Assembly (NCBI GenBank): GCA_964187785.1
Contig: OZ076409.1
Span: 76,014,001 to 76,078,000 of the forward strand
Origin: Amphiscolops sp. MND2022
Taxonomy: Eukaryota
Length of the DNA: 64,000 nt
Reading direction: 5' to 3'
Shown here: positions 1-17,848 of the stretch, one piece after another
How the letters are laid out: each line of letters begins with the position of its first letter
Numbering within the stretch: the stretch's first letter is position 1
Program-made: the position numbers and the translations under genes
The notes under the pieces: generated by a model
The model's input: the letters and a program-made list of their open reading frames with translations, nothing else
Told to the model about the DNA's origin: nothing
Database searches by the model: none

Positions 1-424
1 CGTAGCAACGGGCATGATTTTGCGTAAACGATAGAGACAGCCGAACGTACCGGTTCTTGCGTTCGATCCTTGGGAATTTCTTTCCGCCTTGCAATCAAAG
101 TTTTTTACAGTTCCAATTAGAATATAAGGATATTTTGAGTTTTCAAGTTTGTACTGTAACGAAACTACAGTCAAACTCTTCAATATTACGCTCTCATACG
201 ATTTCTTTTCATGAACAAAAAAATTAGATATTACAGCTTATTTCAAAAAACAATAGTGCTCCGTCCTTGTTTCCAGGAAAGGTCTTTTAAAGCGAAACTG
301 CAAACTGCTCCTAATTTTTTTATGTCAAGGCGATAACAAGGGCCACTCCCACTACCATGTGAACAATTTTGACTCCTGCAAATCAGGTACTTCGTGGGCA
401 CGTACCAAAAACACTTTTTTGGAA

Positions 425-1013
425 ATGAGTTTCCGAAAAGCACATGTAATACTTGTATATCTCTGCGAGAATGTCACCAAGGACACTTCTGAATTGCGTA
501 AGCTCTCACGCATGCCGAAAACTACATTTTATAGGAATTTGGAGGAAATTACTCAATATGGGACAACAGAATGAAAACTTGGAAGTGGACTACCCCAAGC
601 TCTGACTCCAGACGACAAGAGATCAGTTTGAAAAAAGATCTTCGATCGCCAACATAACTTGTGAGTTTCGGGAAGCAAGGGATGTTCAAGTTTCGATGCC
701 CACCGTCTACCGAACTTTGAAGAAAGCAGGGATTTCCAAGAAAAAAAAGCACGGAAAATTCTATTGTTGACAGATGCCCAGAAACAGAAACTTTTTCCCC
801 TGTCAAACTCGACAATTTTTTCGCAAATGTGTTTACCACCGACGAGTCATTTTTCCAACTTTATAGAAACAAATATTTGCACTGGTCCAAAGGTCAGAAG
901 CCTGTGAAACCTGCACCCAAAATTGCCCCAAAATCACGGTGTGGGGTGCTTTCGGCTATTGTGGATTTTATTTTGAAATTTGTGACCGAGGGACAATTAA
1001 CAGCCAACGATAT
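425..1013 (+). pseudogene. Tc1/mariner (IS630-Tc1-mariner) transposase remnant, frameshifted and truncated by the LTR insertion
   Basis: An HTH-like N-terminus (ELRKLSRMPKTTFYRNL) is followed by GSGLPQAL (GRPR-like), the first catalytic Asp motif VFTTDESFFQL and, after a frameshift, KITVWGAFGYCG. It has stops and frameshifts, and ends at the TG of the LTR at 1014. Confidence 0.7.
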
Positions 1014-3262
1014 TGTCTAACCCAACTCTGTGGGCCGGCTTTGAAGAACTTTGCGATGACGAAGGTAAGTTATTTTCGTCACTTTTACTAATAACTGCCA
1101 TTAATAAGTTCTTCAGTTGACTAAACTCGCTTTGTAGCTCATTTATCTTCTTCTCATAGTTCTCCCTTATTTCAGACAACTGGGACGAGATATCTGAAGC
1201 TTCGTTGTTGTCAGAGTCATTGGCGGACGACTGAGCCATGTCTGGATCTATTGGAGAGGATGTTCCTGACGAGGAATTAATAACTCTACCGCTTCTAAGT
1301 TCTGTGCCTTGATCTGGATTCATGTAATCGAGAGAAAAGAATTATGAGTGGAGACTGGATTATCTGAGATGCTGTTTCGATGTATTTTACTGATTTAAGT
1401 GGTTATTCGATCTCAAAATTCACAAATCTGAACTGAGATGTTTTTTAGAAAGAAGTCGTACAAACAAGTAAGCAGTTAGGTAAGGATAAGGAAAATTAGT
1501 AAGGTACTCAGGAGAAGTTCATCCAATTTTCATCGCAGTCGTAGATGTACCACGTAAATTACTCAGTTTAAGTTCTTTAATTTCTGAAGATGAAATAGAG
1601 ATGTGTTTTCTGACTTTCGCGTGTAAAAATATCCAACTGGTCGGTAGCTTGTCGCAATTCGGGCTGAGTAATATTTAATGGCGGGCCTAATTACAGCAGT
1701 TCACGTGTCTTTTCGGTTGGTAAGACGCTAAATCTCTTACCAACCTTCTCTCATTGGCTGTTGCCAGCTGGTGTTAAAATGGTAAGTCACGTGACCGGTG
1801 TTGTGAACTGCCGCAAAGTGGCCACGCTTCATGGTACATCTACATATGTTAATGGTGTTTAGTCATCGATTTACAATGTCGCAATTGCCTGCACGTAGCA
1901 TCATGGTTTCTATAACAACTAAAATGAACTCAAATCATTCGATAATGCACTAATTTCAAGTCAATTTAAAGTAAAACACAATTTGGGATGGGAAAACGAT
2001 GTTTTCCGCTGATTCTAGCGCCAAAATCAATGATTTAAAACTCGAAGATGGAAATGCGATGAACTTGTAAGAATATTTGCTGATTTCCAAGTTTAGTTTA
2101 GCTCTGGATGAAAATGCGATGAATGGTAGTCTTTCTCGCTCGGAAATCAACACAATTCAAACTGACGATGATAAAAGGATGAACTCCACGTATAATTTGC
2201 CAATTTCCAGCACAGATTAAACTGACGATGAATTCGGGATGAATTCAGTCGATAAATGCTAATTTTAGCACCAGTGAATTTTTGGCGATGGGTTTAGGAT
2301 GAACTTGTCAGTTAAAACAGCAACTACCAAAGCAATACAAATTGGCGATGAGTTTAGGATGAACTCACCAGTTAAAACACCGAATACTAAGGCAATTCAA
2401 TTTAGCGATGAGTTTAGGATGAACTCATCCGCTAAGATGGTCTTTTTTCAGCACAAACGAAATCAAGATGAATTAAGGATGGGTTTACTAAACAAATCAG
2501 ATAACTAGCACTTTCACTCTTTTTTAGGATGGATTAAGGATGTACTTTCTCATTTCCCTTCTATGCTAGTGAATACGAAGGATAAAGGATGAGTTAATGT
2601 TCTTTAGAAATGAGAAGCACATTCAGGAGTTTCTAAATGAGATATCGCGATGAATTAAAGATGAGTTTTACTAAAAAAAGTCCCATAAAATCCGCTGATG
2701 GATTTATGATGAAAATCAGTTTAAAGTCCCATGCTTTGTTCACTCGCAATTTTTGAGGATGGGATTGCGATGAACTTTGGTTAAAAGCACCGTTGAATCC
2801 GCTGGTGGATCCAATTGAAATTTCTGATCAGGTCAAAATCGTCATCAAATTCGACGATGAATTTGTGATGAATTTAATGGAATTTGTCACAACTACATAC
2901 TCTGAGGCGGGGAGTTAGTAGAAGTTATATTTTCCATTACTTCCAATATTTCTCGGTCCAGTCTGACCGGAAAACTTCTCTCCCTTGTCGTAACAAACCA
3001 ATATTGATGAAATATAGCACTTTCAAGGCCATATTCTGGCAAGATCATTTATGCGGACACCGGAACTAGAGCGCTCAGTATTAAGTAAATACATATAACT
3101 CACACTCAAAGGGGGAAGGTATTAAAGTACAAGTAACGTAGGGTTGCTCACAACCATGGCCCTTATTATATGACATCATATTGCCCATATCTAAGTACAT
3201 AAGACATAATATTTACATTACAGATTTTTAGTAGATTACATTTCCATCATGCTGGCATGACA
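1014..3262 (-). repeat. 3' LTR (inner boundary tentative, ~2.25 kb)
   Basis: Outer end TGTCTAAC at 1014 is fixed by identity with 17417. The inner end is inferred from ...CATGACA at 3262 (TGTC...GACA termini); only a weak purine tract (GGGAG on the minus strand) is adjacent. Confidence 0.55.
1987..2871 (+). repeat. ~60-bp-period degenerate array of GATG-N7-GATG motifs in the LTR
   Basis: Pairs start at 1987, 2047, 2107, 2167, 2227, 2287, 2347, 2407 and 2467 (exact 60-bp spacing), then at ~2528, 2649, 2697, 2758 and 2857. Confidence 0.85.
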
Positions 3263-4433
3263 CTCCCGGGTGGGATTTGGATTGAGAGTGCAGGTGCCAA
3301 ATGTGCAGAGGATGGTTGTCTCGGCGTTGGCTTCGACTGCTTCCTTCGTTTGGTTGGGGAGAAAATGGCCTTCGTTAGTTCTGAATTGTCATGTCCTTCG
3401 CTTGTTCCGTCCTATGCAAATCTTCTCTGAGAAGAGGACTTTCGGCAATCGTCATGTCTGGTTTCATTCTGGGTGATTTCGGTTAAATTTTCTCGACGCG
3501 GCAACTCTAGTTCTTGGTCCATCGAATGTCCGCTGATCTGCATTTTATTGGTTGTCATGCTTTTGATGGGAGTTTCGGCTGGTTATTTTCGGTAGAAGCT
3601 GATTTCTCGGAGAAAAGTTTCCCTCCAAAACGCCTACACTGAATAAACAATTCGACTAGCTTCATTGACAAATTGGCAGCGAGTCGGAGATGAATGAACG
3701 ATGAATTGTTTACACAGCGAGGCAGCGATGTTGATTTAGCAGACGACTGGTGCCGTTGCTCTACTATCATCTTCCGCGATAAGAAAGAGATGAGTCGTCG
3801 TCATAGTAACCGTTGAAGCTACTTCCGCTGTCTGAAATCTCAGTGATGAGAAAGAGATGGCCTGTTGCCATAGCAATCACTGCTAATTCTGATTGGCTGA
3901 AAACTGAATTTTCTGAACTGAAAGAAATCCAACCGGTTGTCAACAAATATTCTCATCCTTGAATCATCTTCCGTCAAGTCGGTTTGAAAATCGCCACGAT
4001 TTCCTTTGCGCGTTTCCGCTCAACTTCATCGGTATTGATCTGAGACTGGCAGCTGTCATCAAAATCAAAGACTTGAAGCTTTTGTAGTCAAATTCTGGGG
4101 GGTGATTCATTTTCAGAGAAAATTGTCAAGTTGGTTGAACTAGGGAAAAAAGTGTAGGCAGTCATTGAAATCGGAGAGTTTTTCATCGATTTTCCATCTT
4201 CTGAATTTCAAGTATTTGGTTTGTCCTGGCATTCAAGCTGCATCCGCGCTCTTTGAAAATTTCCGCGAATTTGTATCTCGCAATCATGGTTGATCAGGCC
4301 ATTTAATTACTGATCAAATCCTTGTCCTCAGTTTCTTCGATTTCGTTCCTTTCCTCACTCTCTTCCGTTCCTTTTCAGATTGTTTTGCAAATTACATTTA
4401 TGTCTGACATCCATTTCGTTCATTCTCTTCCAG

Positions 4434-7400
4434 AGACCGAAGCTACAGAAAGTAAGTGTACCATTTTCTTTTCTTTCACAAACGGGTCAGGGGACAATTA
4501 GGTGCTGAAAACGCGTCTTGGCTTTTTAGCGGACTCGGTTCAATCTGTCGGCGTCGTCTCTGAGCTGACTACTTTGCAGACCGTGCCGCCTCAAGAAGTT
4601 CCCGAAGCTCAAGCAGCAGCTCCTGAACCCCAGTTTCAACTTGATCACCCGTTTGATCAGGCTCCCAATGTCCCGTATCTTCCACAGTGTAAGTTCTGTC
4701 CCTCCAGATCTTCAATTCAGTCCACAATCTCTTCATTTCTCATCTCTAGTTCCTTCAGACGTTGACTCTTTCCTTTTGATGTTTAGATCACTATCCTTGG
4801 CATGCCTCCCTCGGTAGCATCACCTTCGAGTGGTATAATAGCCACATGCGGGACATGCTACGAGATAGCATCCAGCAGTATAGTGAGTTGACTCCTTTTC
4901 ACATTTCCGACTGTACTAAGGTATCGTCCGGACACTCCGATGTAATTCCGATGTAAACATCTCATCTGCATGTAGTGCCCTTCACGGTCGATTACCTATA
5001 AAATTCATGTTTTAAGATGAATTTGGGATGCGTCATGGACATTCACCGTCCTTTCGTGGCTAATCCGTTTCCGAATTCCATTTTGAGGGTGAAATTTTGG
5101 TGACTTCGTTTCCTGTTTTCTTTCTTCGCGCGGCGTACGCGCACTCTCTTCATCATCTGTCGTCGTCTGATTTCTGTTTTTCTTCTTTCAGGTCCGACTC
5201 CGGAACTTAGCGTCTCTGGAACTTTGGAGGCTGACGTTGAGCAGTCTGACGTGCCATCAACCGACAGCACTGGTACCCTTCTAGAGGCAGTCGAGAATGT
5301 CCCTACTGGTGATCCTCTGTCCGCAGAGCCTGCTCCAGAAGGTGCTGTTCCCGGTCTGGTTCCTGTGTCTGCTGAGACGTCTCCCATGGGACCCATTGCG
5401 TCTCGCTTGCCAGGTTACCTAAACATCTTTAACTCTGTGAAGTATCTGATCGGTAACTTTTATTCATTCCTTTTTTCATTTCCACTTTCACCAGTGTTTT
5501 TCACGTCTTTCTTCTTTTCCATCTATTTTCCATCGTTTTTCTGTTTTTCATATGATTTTCTGCAGTTTTTTCATTTTCCATCACTTTCTCATCGTTAAAA
5601 GTCTTGAGTATAGCGTTTTTCTTTTCTGATCGTTTTTTAGAACTTTCCATCTCTTTTACGTCCTTAAAATTTTTCTTGCTCGGTCTTTAGCCATTTTTGT
5701 CGTTTTCTTTTTAGTTTACATCTCTTTTTCATCGTTAAGTTATTTTCGCTCTAAAATATCTCAATTTTGGTTCAAAGTTGTTCTATACATCTCTTTTTCA
5801 TCGTTCGAGGCTTTCGTCTTTTAAAGTTCCAATTTTCTGTCCTGGTGGCTTGTAAACACATCTCTTTTTCATTTTTTCGTTTTTTCCTCGTTTTTCGCTT
5901 ATATTTCCAATGAAAATATTATTTTACATCATGTTTTCATCACTCCGGGTGAGGTTTTTTCTTTTTCTTTTTTGAAATGGTCGGTTGATTTTCTATTTTT
6001 CGGTATTCTAGGATGTGTGGAGGATGGGGTTAACATTTTTCGTTGTTCTTTTGATATCAGGAAGGAAAATTCTCAAGTCAGCGTGGTTTGACCACGCTTA
6101 TTGTGGATTGGCGCTCGGTTTCCCGAAGGATCACCTGACGCGCGATTCGTACGCGAGATGTCTACTCTGCAGGCAAGATGTCAAGATCGGTAGCCGCGGT
6201 ATAACAACCTTCTTTGAACACTGCCGGGGAGTCAGACACCACCGGCTGGACTGTCTGACGCGATTGCGAAGGGGCCTACCGCTGCGCAGACGAGATGGGA
6301 CACTGATGTCCCAAGCCGAGGCAGACGTATGTGGTGCCGCATTAATTGGTGAGTCAGTGCCGTTGATTGAGACGTGTCCAGATGTGACTGTTCTGGAGGC
6401 ACTGCAGATCGAGGCGAGTGATGGTTCAGTGTGGGGCACAAGGCGAGTCGCAGAGGATGACGACCACACTGACAGTTTTCGGTTGTTCGTGTGTCTAGTG
6501 ATTGATGCGGTCTATCGGGACTGTAATTTTGCAAGTGTGCGACATCTTTGGCACCTGATGGTTGCCTCCAATTCGCAGCATGCTATCATGTTTGGGGCGA
6601 CTTGTCGAGAATCCGACGTTCTGGTTATTATGAATCTTTTCCGGATGCATGAAATAATTACATGTTGCATGTATTGTTATTTGTATGGTACATGTGAAAC
6701 ACGAGTAATTGGTTCGTGGTCCGAAACAGAATACAGCAGTTTCGGTGTTACATTAGTGGCGGACAGAGTGGTGGGCACGCTGAATGTATGTACCTCGGAA
6801 GGGCCTGCGAACTATGTGGTCTTTTCATTTGTTTATGGACAAGAGTGGGAGCAGCGAGTGGTCTCGTGGGCTGTCAATATGTTGTGTTGCGCTGTGGGGC
6901 AGTTGGCACCTGTCGGCCTCAATTGTCGACTGTTGTCTGGGCTGGAAAGGGTGTTGGTCAGCCGCTCTGGACCAAGGACAGTCTCACTTGTGTCGTTAAA
7001 ACTTACCGAGCTAAACAAGCGTCTGGTGGATGCGAGCATTCGTGTGATGGGCGGGACAGATGTACATACGATATTGAACCATTTGCAATCAAGGCTAAAA
7101 GAATTCGTCCGGGACCCAATCTTTTTTGCTTGTCCAAAGCTCTTGCAGGTAACTATTTGCTATTTTTCGATTATTTTTCACTCATGTTGATGTGTCGATT
7201 TTTTGGGGGTGATGCTTTTCGCGGTTGTATCGTGTTTAATTTGGGAATTTTTTATTTTTATAAATTCTTGTTTGTTATAGTCCGTGTTAGACGGAGAGGT
7301 AACCCTCTGGGACGTACCGGACGTGTTGGCTGAGTTGTCCGAGAATTGGGCAGAGGTCTCGAATCTGTTGAGAGTGCCTAGTGGATCCGGCATCATTGAG

Positions 7401-8554
7401 TCTTTGGACTTTGTGCTGTGTGGGGATCGTGCTATCCCTTTCCGTTTGCAGGCCTTAGCTAGTGTCTTTCGTGCACGTATGTATGTTTTTTGTTTTCTTG
7501 GTCCATGTCGTTTCGTTATTCACAGTGTCTTAATTTAATAAAAGATATTTGGTTCGGGAATCAAGTAGAGAGCGTGTGACTTGACTATGGTTTTTTTTGC
7601 ATTAATTTTTGTTGTTTTCAGTCGTCGATTCGTATCGCTGGAGCTTCAGCAGTTGTCCATTGAGGAGTTTTCATTGGGCGTACGAGAGTGCGTGTTTTGT
7701 GCACGCAATCTTAGTCAAGGTGATAGACGACGATGACCTGCCTAGTGTGACTGAGGTGCGGGCTTGCTTGGAAGTGGACGTGGACAATTTGACTGTGTCA
7801 GATGCCAAGTTGCGAACCATGAGGGATGAATTTGGTCCCTACTTAGGGCAAGTTGCAGAAGCTGCCGTAATTGATGAACACTTGGCGACGGTGCAAAGCT
7901 TCATGTTTGTAGTGGTTGAAGACATTCTAGCTGCTTCCGGGATGAAAGAAGAAGTGACATATCATTTGAGTGTGGGTTGTCCTGCTCTTTTGTTGCGTGG
8001 TGAAATTGACGTGTTACGAAATGAAGCTGAACAATTTACTGGATTGCTCATGGATCTGGGGAGGATAGGACTCGCTGAGAAGAGACGAATGGATGGGAGT
8101 TTCGTCTCATTCGTGACCAACTTCAGGCAGAATGCAGTTGATATGTCCGTAGGCAGTGCAAGTTCAGCAGTGGACATTTTGCGGGCATGTGAGAGTTCAT
8201 CGTGTCAACGCTTCTTCCGTTTCTTGATGCGTCTGGGTGAGACTCCTGTATTCCCAGCAGGTATCAGTTGCGTCAGCGTGGGAGGGTTGAGCAGTGGTGT
8301 CACGACAAGTGTTTGCTCAAGTATTCTAAGTTATTTGAGAAACGCATTCCATCAGAGAGTTCGAAACTGTGAGTGGGCCGTTACTTGAGGAGGTTACGGA
8401 GTCAATTGGTCATTTCACAGCTTTAGCCGATTTGACAGAAGAGATGCTGTGGGATGATGTAGGAGTGGTCGCGGATGAAGAATACCGTCAGTCGTTGTAC
8501 GATGCGATCGGATTTACAGCTGCTGGAGAGCGCGCAGCTAGCCCTGAGGTTTAG
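4434..8554 (+). CDS. Spliced antisense gene inside the retrotransposon: ~900-aa protein with a BED/hAT-type C2H2 zinc finger
   Basis: Phase-compatible GT-AG exons: 4434-4451 (tentative), 4502-4688, 4787-4882, 5192-5413 (or 5452), 6061-7148, 7281-7476, 7622-8554. One frameshift near 8350. Motif AWF...ARCLLCRQDVKIGSRGITTFFEHCRGVRH. Start codon not located. Confidence 0.65.
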
Positions 8555-8817
8555 AATTGACTTTCTGTTCATTATTATTTTTTGAAACTGTTTGTATCTT
8601 TCATGTTATTTTATATTACTGTATGTTATAGTATTGTATCTAGCAAATGGGTGACCAATTGAACGAATTTACAGGGGGGGGGAGAACAACAGATGCTACG
8701 TCGGAAAGTTCGGTAGCGTAGATATATACATATTTAGTATTTGGCACCCGAAATTTGTTTTTCTCTTGAGACATTTTTAGGTGAGGATAGGGATAGGTTA
8801 GATTTGCGGATAGTTTT

Positions 8818-9197
8818 CATCGCTTTCTCATCGCTTTTTATTTTCGCGCGTTTTAGATAACTTTTATTACGGTGTTCATCGTTATTACATCTCGTGTAGG
8901 TGTGGCTAATTCATCAGTGTTTCATTTTGATGTCTCATCTCATTTTCATCTTGTTTTCCTCAGTCGACCGAGCGACGTCGCGAAAACTGTTTTCTCATCT
9001 TTTTTACATCTTTCGTTGTGTGGAAATCATTGCATTTTGTTTCATGTGTTTTTCTGCAAAGTTCATCGTTTTTTCATCTTGCGTTTTCATTTTATCATTT
9101 TGGCGAGTTATTTGCTGTAGTTCATCGTTTTTGCATCGCAAGTTTTGACTTGTCGAATTTTTGCTCATTTTGCTGCATAGTTCATCTTCTTTTCATC
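8818..9197 (+). repeat. Cluster of CATC-N7-CATC motifs at ~60-bp spacing
   Basis: Pairs at 8818, 8877, 8936, 8996, 9064, 9123 and 9183. Confidence 0.85.
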
Positions 9198-10588
9198 GTA
9201 ATTTTGGAAAATATTTATCTTGCGTGTTTTTCGTGTTTATTTTACTATAACGTAATCGAGAGTTGCATTTTTCATGGTAGATGAGGGTATTTTATCAATT
9301 TTGCGGTAATTTGGGAGTGTTTTCTTCATGTATTTTAGTGTCATATGGTGTTGATCGTTTGTTAGGTTGTCGAAAATGCATGAAATTTAGTGTACATGTG
9401 TTATACTCATTTTCGTTGCGTTTCGGATTTGTCATAGTTTGAACATTATTGCATGAATCATTTTTCGGACTCTTGTGACTGCCGCTTGCGTGGTAGTCGA
9501 AGAGATGTTCACTCAGCAATGGTATTGGAACCCCGTAGGCGTGCAAGGTACTTGAGGTACCAATCCAAAGCTGGGTGAGTGGAGCTGCTCCGCTCCTCTC
9601 AGATGAATGAAATCTCTCAGTTTTGAGCTATATATAGTCTTCATGTTATTTTTTTACGGTCGGTTGTTTGTCATCAGACGTCGAAATGGGTTTGTCCATT
9701 TGAAATTTAATCTGATCAATCAAGGTGATTGACATCTACGGCTTTGCATGTTTCGAATTATTAAGTTTTGTGATATTGTGTGGTTTCATGTTTGCGTGTT
9801 TTCATAATGTATTCCTTTAAATGGGTTGCCCCATTATCGACATGTTGTTATATGTTCGGTGTTTCAAGTATTTTAATTTGGTGTTTTTATTTTCGTTCAT
9901 TTGGACAGGGCTTTGTCGTCACAAAGCCCCTACAAAACTAACTGAGAATCCACTAGCCGCTGGATAACCAACGCAGCAAGCTTCATCCGAATATGGTTGT
10001 GAGCTCCCCGCCTCAACTAACCAGCACTTTTTTCAGAGAAATGCCAGCCAGCACGAAGGAATGTTTTTGGCTTTTCGATAGGGGTATCTTGCTTGTTATG
10101 AACTGATGTTTACTGGGGGTGCTCACTCCTTTATTCGTTTTGTGGGTGTTTCGTCAGTTCTTATATTTTGCATGTAAGTTATTAGGCTTCAGGTATTTTC
10201 GATTGTTTGTTTCATTTTTATTCGTCTAGGTTTGGATGGTTTTGGTGTGAATTGCATATATTATCTCGTTCATTTTTAAACGGTACATGTATTTTTCCGT
10301 GTGTTGCTCATTTGTATTGCATGTAGTTTGGAATTGTCAATTTCTTTCGTGACGTCATTGATTTGGCAGGTCTTTGAACCTTACATGTATTGTTCATTTT
10401 CGTTTTTGTGAGGCATAATTCTATTTGCGTGATTCGAAATAAGGTCGGCGGTTTTTTATCGTTTCGTGGAGTTACATGTTGTTTGAGAATTAGCTGATTT
10501 ATTGTGATTTTATGTGGATGGTGTTTCTCATCACAAGGAGGTTATCGTAAGTCATTTAATATTTTCGTATTTCCATTTAGACTAAATT

Positions 10589-11312
10589 CATCGTTTTGAC
10601 ATCCTCCAGCGAAGCTAGAGTATTGTGTCAGGCTAACGATAAATTCGGTCACGATTTGATGGTAGTGTCCATCACAAATTCATCTCGTTAATTGATTTCA
10701 TGTAAATTCTGAATAATTGAATCGAGTTCATCGCTATTTCATCCTCTAGCCGAGCTAGAGTATTATGATAGCATGAACGTGAGTGCGCTCGCATTCTGAT
10801 GGCATTTTCCATCTCAAATGCATCGCTAGTAAATATAGCATGTTGATTGGTCGAAATTTTGACTAAGTTCATCACTTTTTCATCTCTCGTGTGTCTGAGA
10901 TAAATTTTCATGTGATTTCATCCTTTTTTCATCTCAAATTTTTATGTGTTGTTTTTTCTGGTTTTTTGGTCGTTTTTCATCCGTTTTACATCGTGTTTTG
11001 TTTTTATGCGTTTTTCATGTGATTTTTAGTAACTTTTCATCCATTTTACATCTTTTTTTCTTTTTAAATTGAAATTGCATGTAATTGACTCGTTTTTGCG
11101 AATTGTTCATCTTTAACACATCGTGTGTTTTGAAATGTTGTTTTACTTGGCTAACTCGTTACGTTTACTTTGTTGGTCTTTCTCAGAGAGTTTCTGGCTG
11201 ATGTAATCTCATGAATAAGGAAGTCAGGATATTTTTTCGGTGTAGGGTTCTCGCGTAACCTGTACCTACTCTGGTTGTTTCTAGACGGTCTAGAACTCAT
11301 CCTTTCCTCATC
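10589..11312 (+). repeat. Cluster of CATC-N7-CATC motifs at and downstream of the pol 3' end
   Basis: Pairs at approximately 10589, 10729, 10810, 10870, 10919, 10978, 11038, 11108 and 11298. Confidence 0.8.
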
Positions 11313-14300
11313 TTCAGTTTGCGTGTTTGTCTGATGTGACTGATTTTCGTGTTGTTCGTCTCTCAGAGGTACTCTTATCCTACTCTCATCGCGGGGGGGC
11401 GGTAGAATAATTTCCTCTTGCGTTCCAAATCTGTAGGTGGTCTAAAGTTGTTGTGGTCAGTTTCTACTTGCTGATACTCTATTCTCGTGGTTATTTCTGG
11501 TGGAATTACTTGTGGACTGTGTCGTTCTTGTACCTGCGGAATTATTTCTTCTGAAGGCTCTTCTTCGACTAAGTCTTGATCTAGATTGTCATTCCCATTC
11601 TGATCTACTTCGTCGGTCGTCGGAATATTCGAGTCGAAAATGTCCGTGTCTTCAACCCTTTCAGTGTCTGGGTAGAGATGTTTGGACACGTTGAAATTCC
11701 GGTTTGAACAACCTCAGTCGCATTCTGTGTACGCACTGGGTCTGGTGTGTGCCTACTTTGCGAATGATGTAGTTGCTATCGGATAGCACTTTCATCACCT
11801 TGTACGGTCCTTTCCAATGGAAGTTTTAAACTCTTCTTTGCTTCTCTGAGAGTCGTACTTAGGATCTAGTAGGAACACAAATTCATTCACCTTCAGTGGC
11901 TGTGCTCGTGCTTTTCTATCATAGTACATTTTGTACTTGTGATAGGCGGAAATGATGTTATCTAGATTGTCTCTGAATATGAAGTTCATTTTGTCTAGAA
12001 TTTCGTTCACGTCCTTGCACTTTGTTTCAGCCGGCTTGTTTGCGTTTCGGAATTGCAGATCTAGTGGGTTGTATGGTGTTCTTCCGTGGAAAATTTCAGT
12101 TGGTGAACATTTCAGTGAATCATGATACGTTGTGTTATGGGCCATAATTGCTATGTCGACATAGCGGTCCCATTGTGGTCTGTCTGCGTTTACACTAATT
12201 TTAAGGATCTTTTTCAGTTTCGCGTGCGTTCTCTCCACCATGCCTATTGTCTGTGCGTGCTTTATCGTGGCATGGGAGATGTGAATATCAGCCGCTTTCG
12301 CGATTTCAGACAGAAGTTCAGCCGTAAACGCCGTGCCCTTGTCCGTCAGAATGTGCTTGGGCACATACGCGTGTTTCGTGAAGATCGACAGTAATCCTCT
12401 GACTACGGAATGTGTGTCAGGTCTCTTCAGCGGAACGGCGAACAGGTAGCGCGAAAAAACGTCAACAGCCGTCAGAATGTGTGTAAAACCGTTCGACGCC
12501 GGGAGTGGACCAACGATGTCTATTTCCAACAGGTCTTCTGGTCCGTCGCACGGGTCGTAGATTTTTTGTAACGGTGGACGTAGCTGCGTTTCTTTTACAC
12601 TTTTAGATTTCATGCAGTTTTCACATCCGTCAAGGACTTTTTTGAACTTTACATGCTAAGTTAGGAGAGTAATATCTTTTACGAAGTTCGTACAACATTT
12701 TCTTTAAACCAGGGTGTCCTTGTACCGGGCTGTTATGTAGAGTCCTAATTATTTTCAAAATACAGTCTTCAGGAACAACTAACTGCTTGTGAGACTCCAG
12801 TCCCGTGTGATCAAAAAACTGTCTGTACAAGACACCGTTTACAACTTGTAGGCGTTTTCGATTTTTGTGCAACTTTTGAAAAAACTGATCTTGCATATTA
12901 ACTGGGTGTTGCAAAATTTCAGTACCTTCTAAAAATTTAATCATGTTTTGAATAACCCAGTTATTTTTCTGGACCTGAATTAGATCGATCCCCTCAGCGG
13001 GGCTAACCTGACTCATCACCGGGTGTGATAATGATACTTTACGGATGAATTGCGAGAGTTGAATCGGCTCGTCCACGTCTGTGAGGCGGTACGTCAGCTG
13101 GTTGTCAGTCGCGAAGTCATCTGAGGCCGCTGTTCTCTCACAGTTGGTGAACTTCATCCCTTTCCCATCGTCATGAGCCACGTCAGTGCCAGTTGCCAAT
13201 TTCATCTCTTTGACATCCTTCTGGCGTTTGCATCTGAGTGGTTCGCTCGTGGGAAAGTAATCAGGCTCGTCTTCCTCCTGTTTTGGTGTACGGGAGGCGA
13301 TGTCGATCTCGATTCTGTGAATTGGAATGGTATCAGTCAATTTTAAATGTACACGGTCTTCAGGTCTAATCTCAAGCCGAGATAAGTAATCCGCTGCGGG
13401 ATTTTCAACTCCTGGAACATGTGCTAATAGAAAATTGAACTGAAGGGTTTGATCGCAAAAATTCCAAAGTGAAGGCGGGATATGCTTCGCCTGAAAAAAT
13501 CTAGTCAAGGCCTTATTGTCAGTCATAACGATGATGGGTTTTTTCGCACCCCACAAAATGTGGCCAAATTCATCGAAGGCAAAGTGCATAGCTAAAAACT
13601 CTTTGGCATACATTGTTAGAGACATCTGGCCGCCCTGAAATTTCTTAGAGCCAAATGCAACAGGGGCGTATGTTTGTTTGACTGACGGGTCAGCATAATC
13701 CTCAATTAACAAAACATAGCCGGCAGCGTGTTCGCTGGCGTCACACATGATTACCAAATGTTTTTCAGGTAATGGCAATTTCAGAGACACTTTTGTTGCT
13801 TTTAACAAACTTTCATTGATTTCAAAAATAGCATCTTTATGTTGTTGGCTCAGCTTGAAAGGGACGTCCTTCTTTATCAAATTCCTGTAAACAACAAGTT
13901 TTATCAGCTAGGCGGGGAATATAAGACCTGTAAAAGTTTACAAAACCAAGATAACGTTGCAACGCTTTCACTGAATTGGGGGGTTTCAACTTGGTTAAGT
14001 AATCTGTTACGCGTTTTTCAATGGGAGCAATACCGGTGCTAGAAATGGTTTTTCCCAAGTACTCAATTTGTTTTTGTCCAAATTCACATTTACTCATGCT
14101 AAGTTTAAGACCAGCTTTGTTCAACTGCTGAAAAACAAGTTCAAGGTTATTGATCAGTTCGTCAGGGGTGTGTGCTGCAATTCCAATGTCATCAACATAT
14201 TGAGCACACCGGTCCGCTTTGACCAAGGGGTCCAAATACTCAGGGACTACACTTGTGAATGCTGACAAAGAACGATTAAGACCCTGTGCTAGACGTAAAA

Positions 14301-16197
14301 AGGCAAAAGTTCTAGAACCAAAGTTAAATGATAACAGTTGGACAGACTGCTCATCGGCCATTGGGATGCAATGGTAGGCCTGGGAACAATCAAGTTTACA
14401 GAAGTACTTTTTCCCGGCCATGTGTTGGGCAGCGTCAGCAATTGTTGTTACGGGATGGTTGTGTGCACCGTAATCGTTTTTGATCAAGTGGTTTATTCTT
14501 CTCAAGTCAACTAAAATCCTCAATTTACCATTAGGTTTACGTTGAGCAAATATCGGGGATGAGTATTTGCTATGAGGCAAAGTAGTTATGATCCCGTACT
14601 CTTGCATTAAGGCTAACTCCACGAGCAAATCGTCCTTCAAATTTGTCGGAGTAGGGAGACTTTGTGAATAAACAGGTTCTTCATGTTGGGGTGTTAGCTT
14701 AACTTTAAAATCAGTGTTCATGCCAATATCAAAACGATGTCTAGCAAAAATGGAGTTGTACTTTACCAGCAACTCCTCTACCTGTAACCGTTGAGATGGA
14801 GTAAGAAGCGAGTCGTCCCAGTTGAAGTTCTTCAGGAAGTTCATCCGTTGTTCATCGGATTGGGACGGGTCAAGCTTCTCGAGCTCTCGCAGTGCCAGAA
14901 TCTCATCATAGATTCGTCGCTCGATTGCGTTGAGTTTGTCTGGCTCACTGCACGTCTCGGGAGTTGGGTACCACTTAGTTGACTTCATTTCAGGGTTCAC
15001 GAACAGTTGGTTGATCACTGCTTCCGCCTCATCTGGGTACTTGGTGATCAGGTTCAAGTGTTCGACTGGCATGGGTGTGATGTTTGCCGCCTGATGTGGT
15101 GTCGGTATGCGAAAGTGTGCCAGAGTGCTGTTGGCATCAAGTGTGAACGTGTGGTTGTTGGGGTTGGTGACCTGGATTGTCGTCTTGCCCTCGTCTAGGT
15201 CAACCAAAGCTGGGGAAACAAGCAATTACGTCTTTCGCATGAATCCAGGTGAGCCCTCAACTGTACAGTTGTAAGTGAGATGTCCGCGTCACTGTGGACC
15301 TGTATCATCACTTGATGGAGAGGAGGGATCACTGTTCTATTACTGGAACACAAATCAATTAAACCAGTTTTGAATCTGTTGTTCTTTTGCTGTCTAAATT
15401 GCATGGACATCATGTGATTAGGGAAGTGGACAAGGTGGTTTTTTATGTCTAAGTTGACTGAGTACTTTTCGAAGAATGACATTCCAATTAAAATTGTGCC
15501 CATTGTTGGAAAGATTAGGAACGTTTCTTCAAAAACTTTTCCAGCAACGTAAAATCTAAGTAAGACTTGCTTACGCACTGGGACTAAGTTCCCGTTTGCT
15601 ATTTGAATTTTGAAATTCGGAGGGGGGAGTTCTTGAAGGATGGCTTCTGGATGAGCCGTTGTTATTTTTCGCAATTCTGCTTAAGACATTGCGCTTTGAA
15701 TTGCGCCTGTGTCTAACAGTGCATGGTTTTCGTATTTATCAAACTGAAGAGGGACGTACAGCATTTTATCTTTCTTGTTTAAATGTAAAGTGGGACTAAG
15801 AACGTGAATTTCTGTTTTAGTTGCATGTTTGTTATCTTTTGAAATGTTAATACTACTATGTTTTGCATGTTTTTTAATACTAAGCCGTTTGTCGATTGTT
15901 GAGTATGAAGTCGAGTCGTCGTCTAGATGGTTGGTGTCCATCTCTTTGGCATCGTCCACCTGCCTCATGGTGTTTTGTTGCCAGTTCATCGTTTGTTCAT
16001 CGTTGATTTCAGCGAGTGGAGAAAAGCGGCTGCCGTTGCGTTGACGTGCATTTCCCATCGCTTTTTCATCGTTGGAAAGTCTTCGCTGATAGACGTCGTC
16101 AGCTTTTGGTCGTTTGTCCAGTGAAGGCTGCCATTTCTTTTTGGACGGTTGTGTGTAGTCGGTTGAGTCGAAAGTCGTTTGTCGCGCGTTGTATTTC
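11143..16197 (-). pseudogene. pol: Pol polyprotein (protease, RT, RNase H, integrase), disrupted by a stop and several frameshifts
   Basis: Protease LLDTGA (15681-16058, premature TAA). RT with LDCSQAY, LAQGL and YVDD (13837-15225). RNase H MCDAS...TDNK...AADYLSR (12630-13880). Integrase HH-CC, then D-D-E (IDIVGP, TDKG, VER; 11795-12613). GPYKV motif near 11780. The tail ends at a TAA near 11143. Confidence 0.92.
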
Positions 16198-16220
16198 TAG
16201 CGGGCAAAATCGTGGCTGAA

Positions 16221-17648
16221 TCAAAAACCCTGGTTAATGTCTTCATCAGAGTAGCTTAGTTGTTCGTCGTCCTCAGTAATTGCTTGCATTGGATTCATCG
16301 GCTTTTGCTGTCGTTTTAAATCTTGTCGTCTAGCCTTGTTGTCGTCCTGTGAATTCGTTGTGTATGGAATCTTTCCATATGCAGAGCTGCTTTCCTTGGG
16401 AATGCGTCGTCTGCAGTCTCTTGCAGAGTGGCCGGTGTATCCACAAATCTGGCAAACCAGCTTGGGATTGTATTTCGGTTTGTCTGGGTCGGTTGCTTTC
16501 TTCATCGGAATTGCATCTTCTTTCTTAATACCGTTTGCTTCGTCACGTTGTCGGGCGCGACATTCTGTTTTGCGGTGACCTGTCTTTCCGCAGTAGAAGC
16601 ATTGTCCCTCAAATCGTTTTCGTTCTGTCGGTTGCGTTGTCGTTGTTGTTGCTGGTTTAATCGTTGTGTTGGTCGTTGGGATCGAGGAGGTGACTGCGTT
16701 AAATGGTTGAATTGCCCTAGGTGGCGCAACGTACTGTTGGTACTGGTACTTTCTCATCAAGTATGTCTTGATTTCTTCTGGTGAGCTCTCCTCCTTATTG
16801 GCCATCGTGAGTTCTTGTTGTATTTCGACTGGGAGTTTACCGAACAAGAACATTTTGATGATTTTATCCGCTTCTTCCCCAAATGCTTGTTTCGCAGTCT
16901 TTTTCAAGTTTTTGAGGAAGTCGCTGAATGTTTTTGTGGTGGGATCGTAACGGGCTTGATCCCATTTGTATCGAGCTACTTCTTTAAGGTCCTCTTTCGC
17001 GAATTCTTTCCTGAAGAGGTCGAGCACATCTTTCAGCGTTGTTAATGGCGTTATCTGGATGGATTGCCAGTACTCTTTTGCATCATCTCTCAAAAGGCTT
17101 TGAAAGAAGTGGAGTTTGTTCTCTTCGGTGATTTTGTTGGCGAGCGGGCTAAGGTGGTTGAGGAGAAGGTGCTCGAATTCCACGAATTTGTCTTTTTGGC
17201 CTCTGAAATTTGGGACGTGTGTCTGTAGTAGTTTCGTGTTGGTGGTGGTGCTTTTGATTCGTTGGGGGATCGTCTCGATTGCATTGAGTAGTCGTTCCTC
17301 ATTGCTTCTAGGAGTTGATTCACCTTCTTCGTCCGAGTCGTCTTCTTGGTATCTCCTGAAGTTTGTGAAGCTGGGTGTCGGGCGGGTGGAGCGGGTTTCT
17401 GTAACTCCTGTCACCATGTCTAACCCAACTCTGTGGGCCGGCTTTGAAGAACTTTGCGATGACGAAGGTAAGTTATTTTCGTCACTTTTACTAATAACTG
17501 CCATTAATAAGTTCTTCAGTTGACTAAACTCGCTTTGTAACTCATTTATCTTCTTTTCATAGTTCTCCCTTATTTCAGACAACTGGGACGAGATATCTGA
17601 AGCTTCGTTGTTGTCAGAGTCATTGGCGGACGACTGAGCCATGTCTGG
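16221..17648 (-). CDS. gag: Gag (start lies within the LTR/gap)
   Basis: Open frame with a coiled coil, a capsid-like region and two CX2CX4HX4C knuckles (CFYCGKTGHRKTEC, CQICGYTGHSARDC). The N-terminus MNPDQGTELRSG is readable in the 3' LTR copy at 1323. Confidence 0.9.
   Translation of the reverse strand, partial: PDMAQSSANDSDNNEASDISSQLSEIRENYEKKINELQSEFSQLKNLLMAVISKSDENNLPSSSQSSSKPAHRVGLDMVTGVTETRSTRPTPSFTNFRRYQEDDSDEEGESTPRSNEERLLNAIETIPQRIKSTTTNTKLLQTHVPNFRGQKDKFVEFEHLLLNHLSPLANKITEENKLHFFQSLLRDDAKEYWQSIQITPLTTLKDVLDLFRKEFAKEDLKEVARYKWDQARYDPTTKTFSDFLKNLKKTAKQAFGEEADKIIKMFLFGKLPVEIQQELTMANKEESSPEEIKTYLMRKYQYQQYVAPPRAIQPFNAVTSSIPTTNTTIKPATTTTTQPTERKRFEGQCFYCGKTGHRKTECRARQRDEANGIKKEDAIPMKKATDPDKPKYNPKLVCQICGYTGHSARDCRRRIPKESSSAYGKIPYTTNSQDDNKARRQDLKRQQKPMNPMQAITEDDEQLSYSDEDINQGF
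17404..17416 (-). promoter_or_regulatory. Primer binding site TGGTGACAGGAGT (probably tRNA-Leu)
   Basis: Starts with TGG immediately after the LTR CA. It is one mismatch from TGGTGTCAGGAGT, the complement of a tRNA-Leu(CAG)-type 3' end; the tRNA identity is an inference. Confidence 0.65.
17417..17648 (-). repeat. 5' LTR, partial (3' part only; the rest is lost in the N gap)
   Basis: Near-identical to 1014-1245. On the minus strand it ends ...GGGTTAGACA and is followed directly by TGG. Confidence 0.85.
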
Positions 17649-17848
17649 NNNNNNNNNNNNNNNNNNNNNNNNNNNNNNNNNNNNNNNNNNNNNNNNNNNN
17701 NNNNNNNNNNNNNNNNNNNNNNNNNNNNNNNNNNNNNNNNNNNNNNNNNNNNNNNNNNNNNNNNNNNNNNNNNNNNNNNNNNNNNNNNNNNNNNNNNNNN
17801 NNNNNNNNNNNNNNNNNNNNNNNNNNNNNNNNNNNNNNNNNNNNNNNN
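17649..17848. other. Assembly gap (200 N)
   Basis: Run of N. Sequence after the gap does not continue the LTR, so the two sides may not be truly adjacent. Confidence 0.98.

What the first reader, a model, noticed from the sequence alone, without database searches (positions are those of the whole stretch)
1519..16517. Retrotransposon saturated with a CATC-N7-CATC motif: possible self-targeting protein/site system
Seen: over 40 copies of two CATC (or GATG) tetramers exactly 11 bp apart (one helical turn), in both orientations. They occur in the LTR (1519, 1589, 1987-2857), upstream of and in introns of the antisense gene (3689, 3845, 3954, 4185, 4940, 5017, 5520-5927), at 8818-9183 and 10589-11298, and inside gag/pol linkers (13155, 13203, 15939, 15987, 16056, 16503). 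Roughly one copy is expected by chance in 17 kb, and I did not notice it in the 20-64 kb array. Spacer sequences vary while spacing (11 bp, ~60 bp) is kept. Inference: binding sites for a dimeric protein, plausibly the element's own zinc-finger product, analogous to the VANC anti-silencing proteins of Arabidopsis VANDAL transposons but here in an LTR retrotransposon.
Basis: partly seen in the sequence, partly recalled or inferred. Interest (0 to 1): 0.85.

Follow-up and report, generated by a model that had tools for sequence, protein, structure and literature searches.

The report
Retrotransposon lineages with private DNA barcodes
This jumping gene carries one short two-part DNA word 55 times along its whole length, sister lineages in the same genome carry different words, and nearly all carry a backwards zinc-finger gene whose protein likely binds its own lineage's word and would thereby shield the element from silencing.

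Summary
Confirmed and extended. A defective Gypsy LTR retrotransposon (1014-17648, minus strand) holds 55 CATC-N7-CATC sites (0.6 expected; none in 17.5-64 kb). Across the genome, 37 of 40 sampled 10-kb stretches are at chance level, and the 3 clusters are this clade's elements or solo LTRs. Sister lineages keep a spliced antisense BED-like zinc-finger gene in the same place but with a diverged finger, lack this motif, and carry their own: CGTC-N7-CGTC, GATG-N15-CATC, ATG-N14-ACGT or GAC-N5-GTC. Each motif is also written into gag-pol through synonymous codons, and half-sites are conserved more than spacers. Best reading: the protein likely binds its lineage's dyads and protects or activates its own family in trans, working like VANC or TnpA but in a retrotransposon. 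Binding, expression and effect are untested. Protein and motif change on few branches, so linkage alone also predicts the co-variation. Some copies show no clear motif, hAT ancestry is unproven, and there is no sign of CpG methylation to remove. Earlier scan notes report a similar pattern in fungal Gypsy elements with a different protein; none covers this DNA.

The parts
1014..3262 (-). 3' LTR, 2.25 kb, TG...CA; also holds the first ~110 codons of gag
   Evidence: sister copies have 2.2-kb LTR pairs and 5-bp target-site duplications
1368..1603 (.). 3 motif sites in the LTR (1368-, 1520+, 1589-)
1987..2870 (-). LTR array of 14 same-strand sites, mostly 60 bp apart, with diverged units
3689..4198 (.). 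4 motif sites upstream of the antisense gene (its promoter region, inferred)
4400..5413 (+). Antisense gene, predicted exons 1-4 (4400-4451, 4530-4688, 4787-4882, 5192-5413): low-complexity N-terminus. This copy lacks about 450 bp of exon 4 relative to a sister copy
   Evidence: conserved ATG and GT/AG sites across 5 copies; exons inferred, no RNA data
4939..6026 (.). 8 motif sites in introns 3 and 4 (4939, 5016; 5520-6012)
6061..6623 (+). Antisense gene exon 5: BED-like C2H2 finger plus helical region; holds one motif site (6294)
   Evidence: (GT donor in 27 of 27 copies that the pattern picked up)
6701..7148 (+). Antisense gene exon 6 (alpha/beta domain). Its splice acceptor and start lie in a 184-bp deletion in this copy
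   Evidence: (GT donor in 14 of 15)
7281..8554 (+). Antisense gene exons 7 (7281-7476) and 8 (7622-8554), helical C-terminal domain; frameshifted near 8340 in this copy
8818..9197 (+). Array of 7 motif sites downstream of the antisense gene
10589..11122 (+). Array of 9 motif sites downstream of integrase
11151..16196 (-). pol (protease, RT, RNase H, integrase), broken into several frames; holds motif sites at 11298, 13155, 13203, 14842, 15639, 15939, 15987 and 16056, mostly in linkers
16221..17416 (-). gag with two CCHC knuckles; motif site at 16503
17405..17416 (-). Primer-binding site, shared by all lineages of the clade examined
17417..17648 (-). Remnant of the 5' LTR (99% identical to 1014-1245), cut by an assembly gap (N 17649-17848)

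Best explanation
The element carries dense lineage-specific two-part DNA sites and an antisense BED-like zinc-finger gene, and the protein likely binds these sites as a dimer or oligomer along the whole element and would keep its own family's chromatin open or active in trans. Shown: the sites; their confinement to the clade; their selection at DNA level, also inside gag-pol; the conserved spliced gene under purifying selection; and a different site in each finger lineage. Inferred: expression from the promoter beside the 3' LTR; one finger per 4-bp half-site; spacing and orientation set by how the subunits join; cooperative loading on arrays; and an anti-silencing or activating outcome, probably through histone-level rather than DNA-methylation silencing. 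Broken or gene-less copies and solo LTRs keep the sites and would be served by intact copies.
For: Motif: 55 vs 0.6 expected. It is the top direct dyad in 31 of 31 lineage A/B copies examined. Background: 8 sites vs 9.5 expected in 37 of 40 genome stretches, and the other 3 are clade elements or LTRs. Lineage-by-motif table: A 49-57 and B 38-43 CATC-N7-CATC; D 5-9 CGTC-N7-CGTC; E1 15-21 GATG-N15-CATY; E2 13-15 ATG-N14-ACGT; G/H 16-22 GAC-N5-GTC. Off-diagonal cells are mostly near chance, although D shows 5-12 GAC-N5-GTC and E2 shows 4 GATG-N15-CATY. Inside gag-pol, the lineage's own motif beats all 200 amino-acid-preserving codon shuffles in 9 of 12 elements. Half-sites are 97% conserved vs 87% for spacers and 80% for flanks in non-coding DNA, while lone CATC is 81% vs 82%. 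Sites occur in both orientations and as direct repeats, which points to double-stranded DNA. The gene has conserved splice sites and dN far below dS, and the finger is its most conserved part. BED fingers bind short repeated motifs cooperatively (PMC10368747, abstract and section 7; PMC5021357, passages). The positions matching Hermes N67/R70 (4 and 1 before the first His) are T/S plus E/D in CATC lineages and E plus R in GTC lineages. A gene-less lineage-H copy looks like a ~3.6-kb deletion derivative rather than a natural gene-free relative.
Against: There are no binding, expression or chromatin data. Finger and motif change on only about 4-5 branches, and finger and RT trees agree, so linkage alone predicts co-variation; the residue match rests on one branch. 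Within lineage A the finger exon varies from 57 to 99% identity with no motif change, though its predicted reading residues stay constant. Misses: a young G-type copy (L079/L216, LTRs 99.9% alike) has the gene but no motif clearly above the shuffle level in the blind scan, only post hoc GGC-N5-GCC 10 vs 1.7. Two old or truncated copies (L073/L118, L214/L134) and one E copy (L184/L185) show none. D's coding-region enrichment is weak (1 and 21 of 200 shuffles reach it). CpG o/e is 0.93 and CpG transitions between LTR pairs are 11.1 vs 8.6 per 1000, so there is no evidence of methylation to remove. BED identity is below Pfam's cut-off.
Confidence: 0.55

Rival explanations
1. The protein binds the sites, but for another purpose: coating the reverse-transcribed DNA for nuclear entry or integration, or repressing its own family to limit copy number.
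For: Sites cover the whole element, including pol, as a coating function would need. hAT BED domains assemble transpososomes on subterminal repeats (PMC10368747, abstract). Nuclear-import or regulatory roles were proposed for plant antisense ORFs (PMC7264820, parts 1-2 of 3).
Against: The densest arrays sit in the LTR and around the antisense promoter and introns, like VANC and TnpA targets (PMC5735166 and 10.64898/2026.08.24.746577, passages). All lineages are abundant, with thousands of first-look candidates, which fits a promoting role.
Confidence: 0.2
2. The sites are bound by host transcription or insulator factors, each lineage having tuned itself to a different host protein; the antisense gene does something else.
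For: LTRs commonly collect host-factor sites (established knowledge). Lineage D arrays include CRE-like TGACGTCA palindromes, 49 vs 3.3 expected in 9 copies. An earlier fungal note (e1-7572074, unchecked) found motif loads in gene-less relatives.
Against: CATC-N7-CATC is at chance level outside the clade. Five different dyads sharing an RTC core, each matched to one finger lineage, would need several host proteins. Every clade copy with a complete 3' region carried the gene, except the deletion derivative.
Confidence: 0.13
3. The arrays are neutral by-products of tandem duplication and template switching, carried along by linkage.
For: The LTR array is a degenerate 60-bp tandem repeat. The element is strongly mosaic by recombination.
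Against: Half-sites are conserved while the units around them diverge. Isolated sites are built from synonymous codons in gag-pol. Most of the A and B LTR arrays do not align yet hold the same dyad.
Confidence: 0.05
4. The motifs act in RNA (packaging, export or hairpins) or as a protein-level D-x-x-x-M repeat.
For: The E and G/H motifs are inverted repeats and could pair. Eight of 9 gag-pol sites in the window read D-x-x-x-M.
Against: The A motif is a direct repeat present on both strands, and 44 of 55 sites lie outside the finger exon, the gag-pol frames and the LTR-borne gag start. Other lineages use other motifs in the same genes, beyond what the amino acids require.
Confidence: 0.07

Closest known systems
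VANC proteins of Arabidopsis VANDAL (MULE) transposons (PMC5735166; passages read)
   Same: TE-encoded accessory protein; short motif multiplied in tandem arrays in introns and non-coding regions; different motif in related families; expected trans action on defective copies.
   Different: Host element is an LTR retrotransposon; the protein has a BED-like finger and no Pfam match; sites are spaced dyads whose geometry also changes; sites are written into gag-pol codons; no sign of CpG methylation; binding not shown.
TnpA of Spm/CACTA and transposases as sequence-specific activators (bioRxiv 10.64898/2026.08.24.746577; abstract and passages)
   Same: Family-specific motifs that mirror element phylogeny and work as dense clusters; regulator possibly derived from a transposase that lost catalysis.
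   Different: Described for DNA transposons only (the word 'retrotransposon' has 0 hits in that text); transposase ancestry here is only a lead.
Antisense extra ORFs of Gypsy elements: Grande, RIRE2, Retand TRP28, Boty brtn (PMC7264820, parts 1-2 of 3; PMC11963269, passages)
   Same: Conserved antisense gene between pol and 3' LTR, nearby family-specific repeat arrays, predicted DNA binding, function unknown.
   Different: Unrelated protein (8 predicted exons, BED-like finger); here a defined motif tracks the finger lineage and is under selection, which those papers do not report in what I read.
BED-finger proteins: Hermes hAT transposase (PMC10368747, abstract and section 7) and Drosophila BEAF-32 (PMC5021357, abstract and passages)
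   Same: Single BED finger reading a 4-5 bp word, with multimers binding clusters; BEAF-32B's CGATA resembles lineage B's CGATG half-site.
   Different: Those are a DNA transposase and a host insulator; no catalytic triad or hAT C-terminal domain was detected here.

Membership tests
Ty3/Gypsy LTR retrotransposon | gag, then RT, RNase H, integrase in Gypsy order | tested here: met
   Pfam zf-CCHC, RVT_1, RT_RNaseH, Integrase_H2C2, rve in that order on the minus strand
Ty3/Gypsy LTR retrotransposon | TG...CA LTRs, PBS, target-site duplication | tested here: met
   the TSD is seen in sister copies, since the window's 5' LTR is cut by a gap
Antisense additional ORF (aORF-3R) elements | [quoted passage not shown] | tested here: met
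Antisense additional ORF (aORF-3R) elements | Antisense transcript | not testable with these tools
   no RNA run was listed
VANC anti-silencing system | Encoded by a VANDAL/MULE DNA transposon | tested here: not met
   the carrier is a Gypsy retrotransposon
VANC anti-silencing system | Family-specific motif arrays in non-coding regions that differ between related families | tested here: met
VANC anti-silencing system | Homology to VANC or plant mobile domain | tested here: inconclusive
   no Pfam match; low-confidence models gave no fold match
VANC anti-silencing system | [quoted passage not shown] | not testable with these tools
   needs EMSA, DAP-seq or ChIP
VANC anti-silencing system | Induces loss of DNA methylation | tested here: inconclusive
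   indirect only: CpG o/e 0.93 and no CpG hypermutation in LTR pairs suggest little methylation to remove
BED zinc finger | C-x2-C ... H-x3-6-H ligands with upstream aromatic residues | tested here: met
   C34, C37, H60, W9 and F10 invariant and H54 nearly invariant in 17 rows; pattern kept in lineages D, E, G, H
BED zinc finger | Significant match to the BED profile | tested here: inconclusive
   Pfam zf-BED in 4 of 17 rows, best E 0.067; our profile's best hit among 365 ORFs of hAT loci is a BED-type finger, E 0.0012
hAT transposase derivative (ZBED/FAM200 type) | RNase H-like core and C-terminal hAT dimerisation domain | tested here: inconclusive
   Atlas feature scores 0.75-0.76 to FAM200/EPM2AIP1/ZBED5 clusters are leads only; no match by Pfam, HMM or hhalign to Ac-type hATs; Buster-type hATs not compared

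The most novel reading that the evidence does not exclude
A whole Gypsy clade captured a BED-finger, probably transposase-derived, gene and evolved a lock-and-key code: each lineage's protein reads its own DNA dyad, written across LTR, introns and even gag-pol codons, and counters host chromatin silencing without DNA demethylation. This would be the first self-targeting anti-silencing system in an LTR retrotransposon, and a natural library of finger-to-site pairs.
Probability: 0.5. Interest if true: 0.9.

Novelty: new variant of a known kind. Interest (0 to 1): 0.8.

Why it matters
In the papers I saw, sequence-specific anti-silencing is shown only for plant DNA transposons, and antisense extra genes of Gypsy elements have had no known function for decades. 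This clade offers matched sets of finger variants and predicted target dyads (at least five) in one genome, so the long-open question of what these genes do becomes a simple binding test with built-in swap controls. It also shows a regulatory word imposed on synonymous codons of gag-pol, and an accessory gene with ancient alleles shuffled over a nearly uniform pol, a pattern expected in a host-element arms race.

Tried and rejected
Expression: no RNA holder was listed; no reads were laid. Structure: two AlphaFold2 models were poor (mean pLDDT 54.5 and 44.8), and Foldseek and VIA-align gave no clear match. The second alignment had its exon-6 rows partly misplaced. Homodimer prediction of the finger exon: no answer. 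PDB sequence searches were blank. A longer-protein search with the C-terminal alignment found nothing, and an Atlas search with a G-type C-terminal exon gave only unnamed clusters. hAT ancestry of exons 6-8 is not shown. My first reading that RT-40-60% relatives lack the gene was wrong: richer profiles found it in most. Finger types P0067, P0069 and P0120 had no match in this genome at the strict cut-offs used, so their motifs could not be examined. No genome-wide pattern count was run; confinement rests on 40 evenly spaced 10-kb stretches of the 13 large scaffolds. Rfam found nothing in the window. Literature searches listed no report of a cognate protein/motif pair in an LTR retrotransposon; one search returned 0 papers. 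Subscription journals are mostly not covered and no supplements were read. The host taxon was not established.
Full report
Observation. The window holds 55 CATC-N7-CATC sites between 1368 and 16517, 32 on + and 23 on -. All other direct spacings from N0 to N24 give 0-3, and 17.5-64 kb gives 0. Dinucleotide shuffles give 0.6. Spacers are T/A-rich rather than random. Same-strand neighbours fall mainly at 48-49, 59-61, 68-70 and 77-81 bp, in steps of about one helical turn. Slippage of the 11-bp unit could also give such steps.

The element. It is a Ty3/Gypsy retrotransposon on the minus strand: 3' LTR 1014-3262, pol about 11151-16196, gag to 17416, PBS 17405-17416, and a 5' LTR cut by an assembly gap. 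Sister copies show 2.2-kb LTR pairs that are mostly 98-99.9% alike and 5-bp target duplications. Between LTR and integrase lies a plus-strand (antisense) gene with 8 predicted exons (4400-8554), inferred from conserved GT/AG sites. The window copy is 97.6% like a sister copy but defective: deletions in exon 4 and at the exon 6 acceptor, a frameshift near 8340, and several frame breaks in pol.

Confinement. Forty evenly spaced 10-kb stretches of the 13 large scaffolds were read. Thirty-seven have 0-1 sites, 8 in all against 9.5 expected. The three clusters are a lineage A element (29 sites), a lineage B LTR (8) and an older C-type LTR (5). All 30 further copies picked by the finger exon, plus the window, have this motif as top direct dyad, 37-76 per 20 kb. 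Lineage B (4 of the 30; RT about 85%, finger 45-47% identical) keeps the core, prefers G after each half-site and often pairs sites head to head. Its LTR aligns with A's only over about 300 bp.

Sister lineages. Following the C-type LTR led to lineage D (RT 51-53%; one partial match 61%), which has the same PBS and the same antisense layout with a finger 31-38% identical. All 10 D copies fetched have 0-1 CATC-N7-CATC and 4-9 CGTC-N7-CGTC. Pooled over 9 (one internally deleted copy dropped), CGTC-N7-CGTC is 51 vs 6.4 and CGTC-N5-GACG 36 vs 3.1, in 50-60 bp arrays in the LTR, before the gene and in gag-pol. A profile search gave 106 relatives with further finger types. Lineage E (RT 65-71%): 10 of 10 copies have 0-2 CATC-N7-CATC. 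Seven were tabulated: E1 has the inverted GATG-N15-CATY 15-21 times vs about 1, E2 has ATG-N14-ACGT 13-15 times vs 2, and one copy is intermediate. Three were left out for lack of pol or an LTR pair, and one of these showed no motif. A separately found E1 copy repeats the result (29 vs 4.2). Lineages G/H (RT 43-57%) carry GAC-N5-GTC, 16-33 vs 1-4 in five elements. Two old copies carry CGT-N8-CGT, 17 and 21 vs 3.5-3.7. Three distant Gypsy stretches (RT 23-28%) have neither gene nor these motifs, apart from 7 vs 4.2 GAC-N5-GTC in one. Misses: one young G-type copy has only a weak, post hoc shifted motif, and two old or truncated copies have none. One H copy has 22 sites but no finger; it is about 3.6 kb shorter exactly where the exons lie. 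Motifs were found on the same data that display them, and copies within a lineage are not independent. The best chance dyad in 3 shuffles scored log p -9 to -13, against -15 to -144 for the lineage motifs.

Selection on the word. Against one reference copy and 10 diverged A copies, non-coding half-sites are 97.0% conserved, spacers 87.3% and flanks 79.5%. Lone CATC (5 copies) is 80.8% vs 82.3% in flanks. Inside gag-pol, with amino acids fixed and synonymous codons shuffled 200 times, the lineage's own motif exceeds every shuffle in 9 of 12 elements (A/B 7-8 vs 0.7-0.8; E 4-6 vs 0.7-0.9; G 8 and 11 vs 2.0-2.4). The two D copies and the young G-type copy are weaker (1, 21 and 3 of 200). Foreign motifs are at chance, with one cell at 4 of 200. 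Neutral tandem amplification cannot explain this.

The protein. Exon 5 holds C-x2-C-x16-H-x5-H with conserved upstream aromatics. Pfam zf-BED matches only weakly (4 of 17, E 0.067), and the best hit among 365 ORFs from hAT loci is a BED-type finger (E 0.0012). An Atlas lead (0.75-0.76) points to FAM200/EPM2AIP1/ZBED5, which are hAT-derived (recalled), but Pfam, hhalign and fold searches did not confirm hAT ancestry for exons 6-8. Within A the gene has dS near or past saturation and dN 0.07-0.63, while RT and integrase have dS 0.03-0.31, so old gene alleles are shuffled over a nearly uniform pol. The finger is the most conserved part. In Hermes the base-reading pair lies 4 and 1 residues before the first zinc His (PMC10368747, section 7). 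Here those positions are T/S and E/D in A, B, C and E (CATC-type half-sites), and E and R in D, G and H (GTC-type), with G and R in the copy with the shifted motif. Finger and RT trees agree (quick trees), so this is one change, not many.

Mechanism. Most likely the protein, made from a promoter beside the 3' LTR, binds cognate dyads as a multimer, loads cooperatively on arrays and keeps its family open or active, including defective copies (inferred). CpG o/e is 0.93 genome-wide and about 1.0 in the elements, and LTR pairs show 11.1 vs 8.6 transitions per 1000 at CpG vs other C/G sites. The target is therefore probably histone- or small-RNA-based silencing, not DNA methylation (inferred). Rivals: binding for cDNA handling or self-repression (0.2), host-factor sites (0.13), RNA or peptide signals (0.07), neutral repeats (0.05).

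Comparison. It works like VANC (PMC5735166, passages) and TnpA (10.64898/2026.08.24.746577, abstract and passages), but it is not a member of either: the carrier is a retrotransposon, and binding is untested. It sits like the antisense extra ORFs of plant and fungal Gypsy elements, whose function is unknown (PMC7264820, parts 1-2 of 3; PMC11963269, passages; PMC13547354, passages, adds nothing on this). My searches listed no cognate protein/motif pair in an LTR retrotransposon. Earlier scan notes describe fungal Gypsy elements with antisense zinc-cluster genes and motif arrays (unchecked), and none matches this sequence or genome. Verdict: real, selected and lineage-specific; a new variant of a known kind; interest 0.8.

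Noticed in passing
window 257-1013: Short ORF pieces left of the LTR look like a Tc1/mariner transposase (resemblance recalled, not tested); the retrotransposon seems to be inserted into it.
   Followed up: no
window ~21,000-64,000: Tandem array of a ~1.97-kb unit, copies 81-98% alike, interrupted near 47-50.5 kb; no ORF over 140 aa in the two units read and no Rfam match.
   Followed up: partly
window 4400-8554 and L011-L070: The antisense coding block has saturated synonymous divergence between copies whose pol differs by dS 0.03-0.3: ancient alleles kept and swapped by recombination, possibly balancing selection.
   Followed up: partly
window 1014-1341 and 17405-17648: The gag frame starts inside the LTR and runs through the primer-binding site; the same PBS occurs in all lineages examined; its tRNA was not identified.
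   Followed up: no
L146-L165 (lineage D arrays): CRE-like TGACGTCA palindromes, 49 vs 3.3 expected in 9 copies: either overlapping half-sites or host bZIP sites.
   Followed up: no
L041/L042: One copy has its LTR motif array repeated in three blocks 800-900 bp apart, showing array amplification.
   Followed up: no
L101/L113/L114: An 8-kb, 99.8% identical tandem duplication that contains a lineage B LTR with no gag or pol found nearby.
   Followed up: partly
L128/L129: A lineage D element whose 2.5-kb terminal repeats include about 0.8 kb of C-type LTR with CATC sites, a possible inter-lineage chimera.
   Followed up: no
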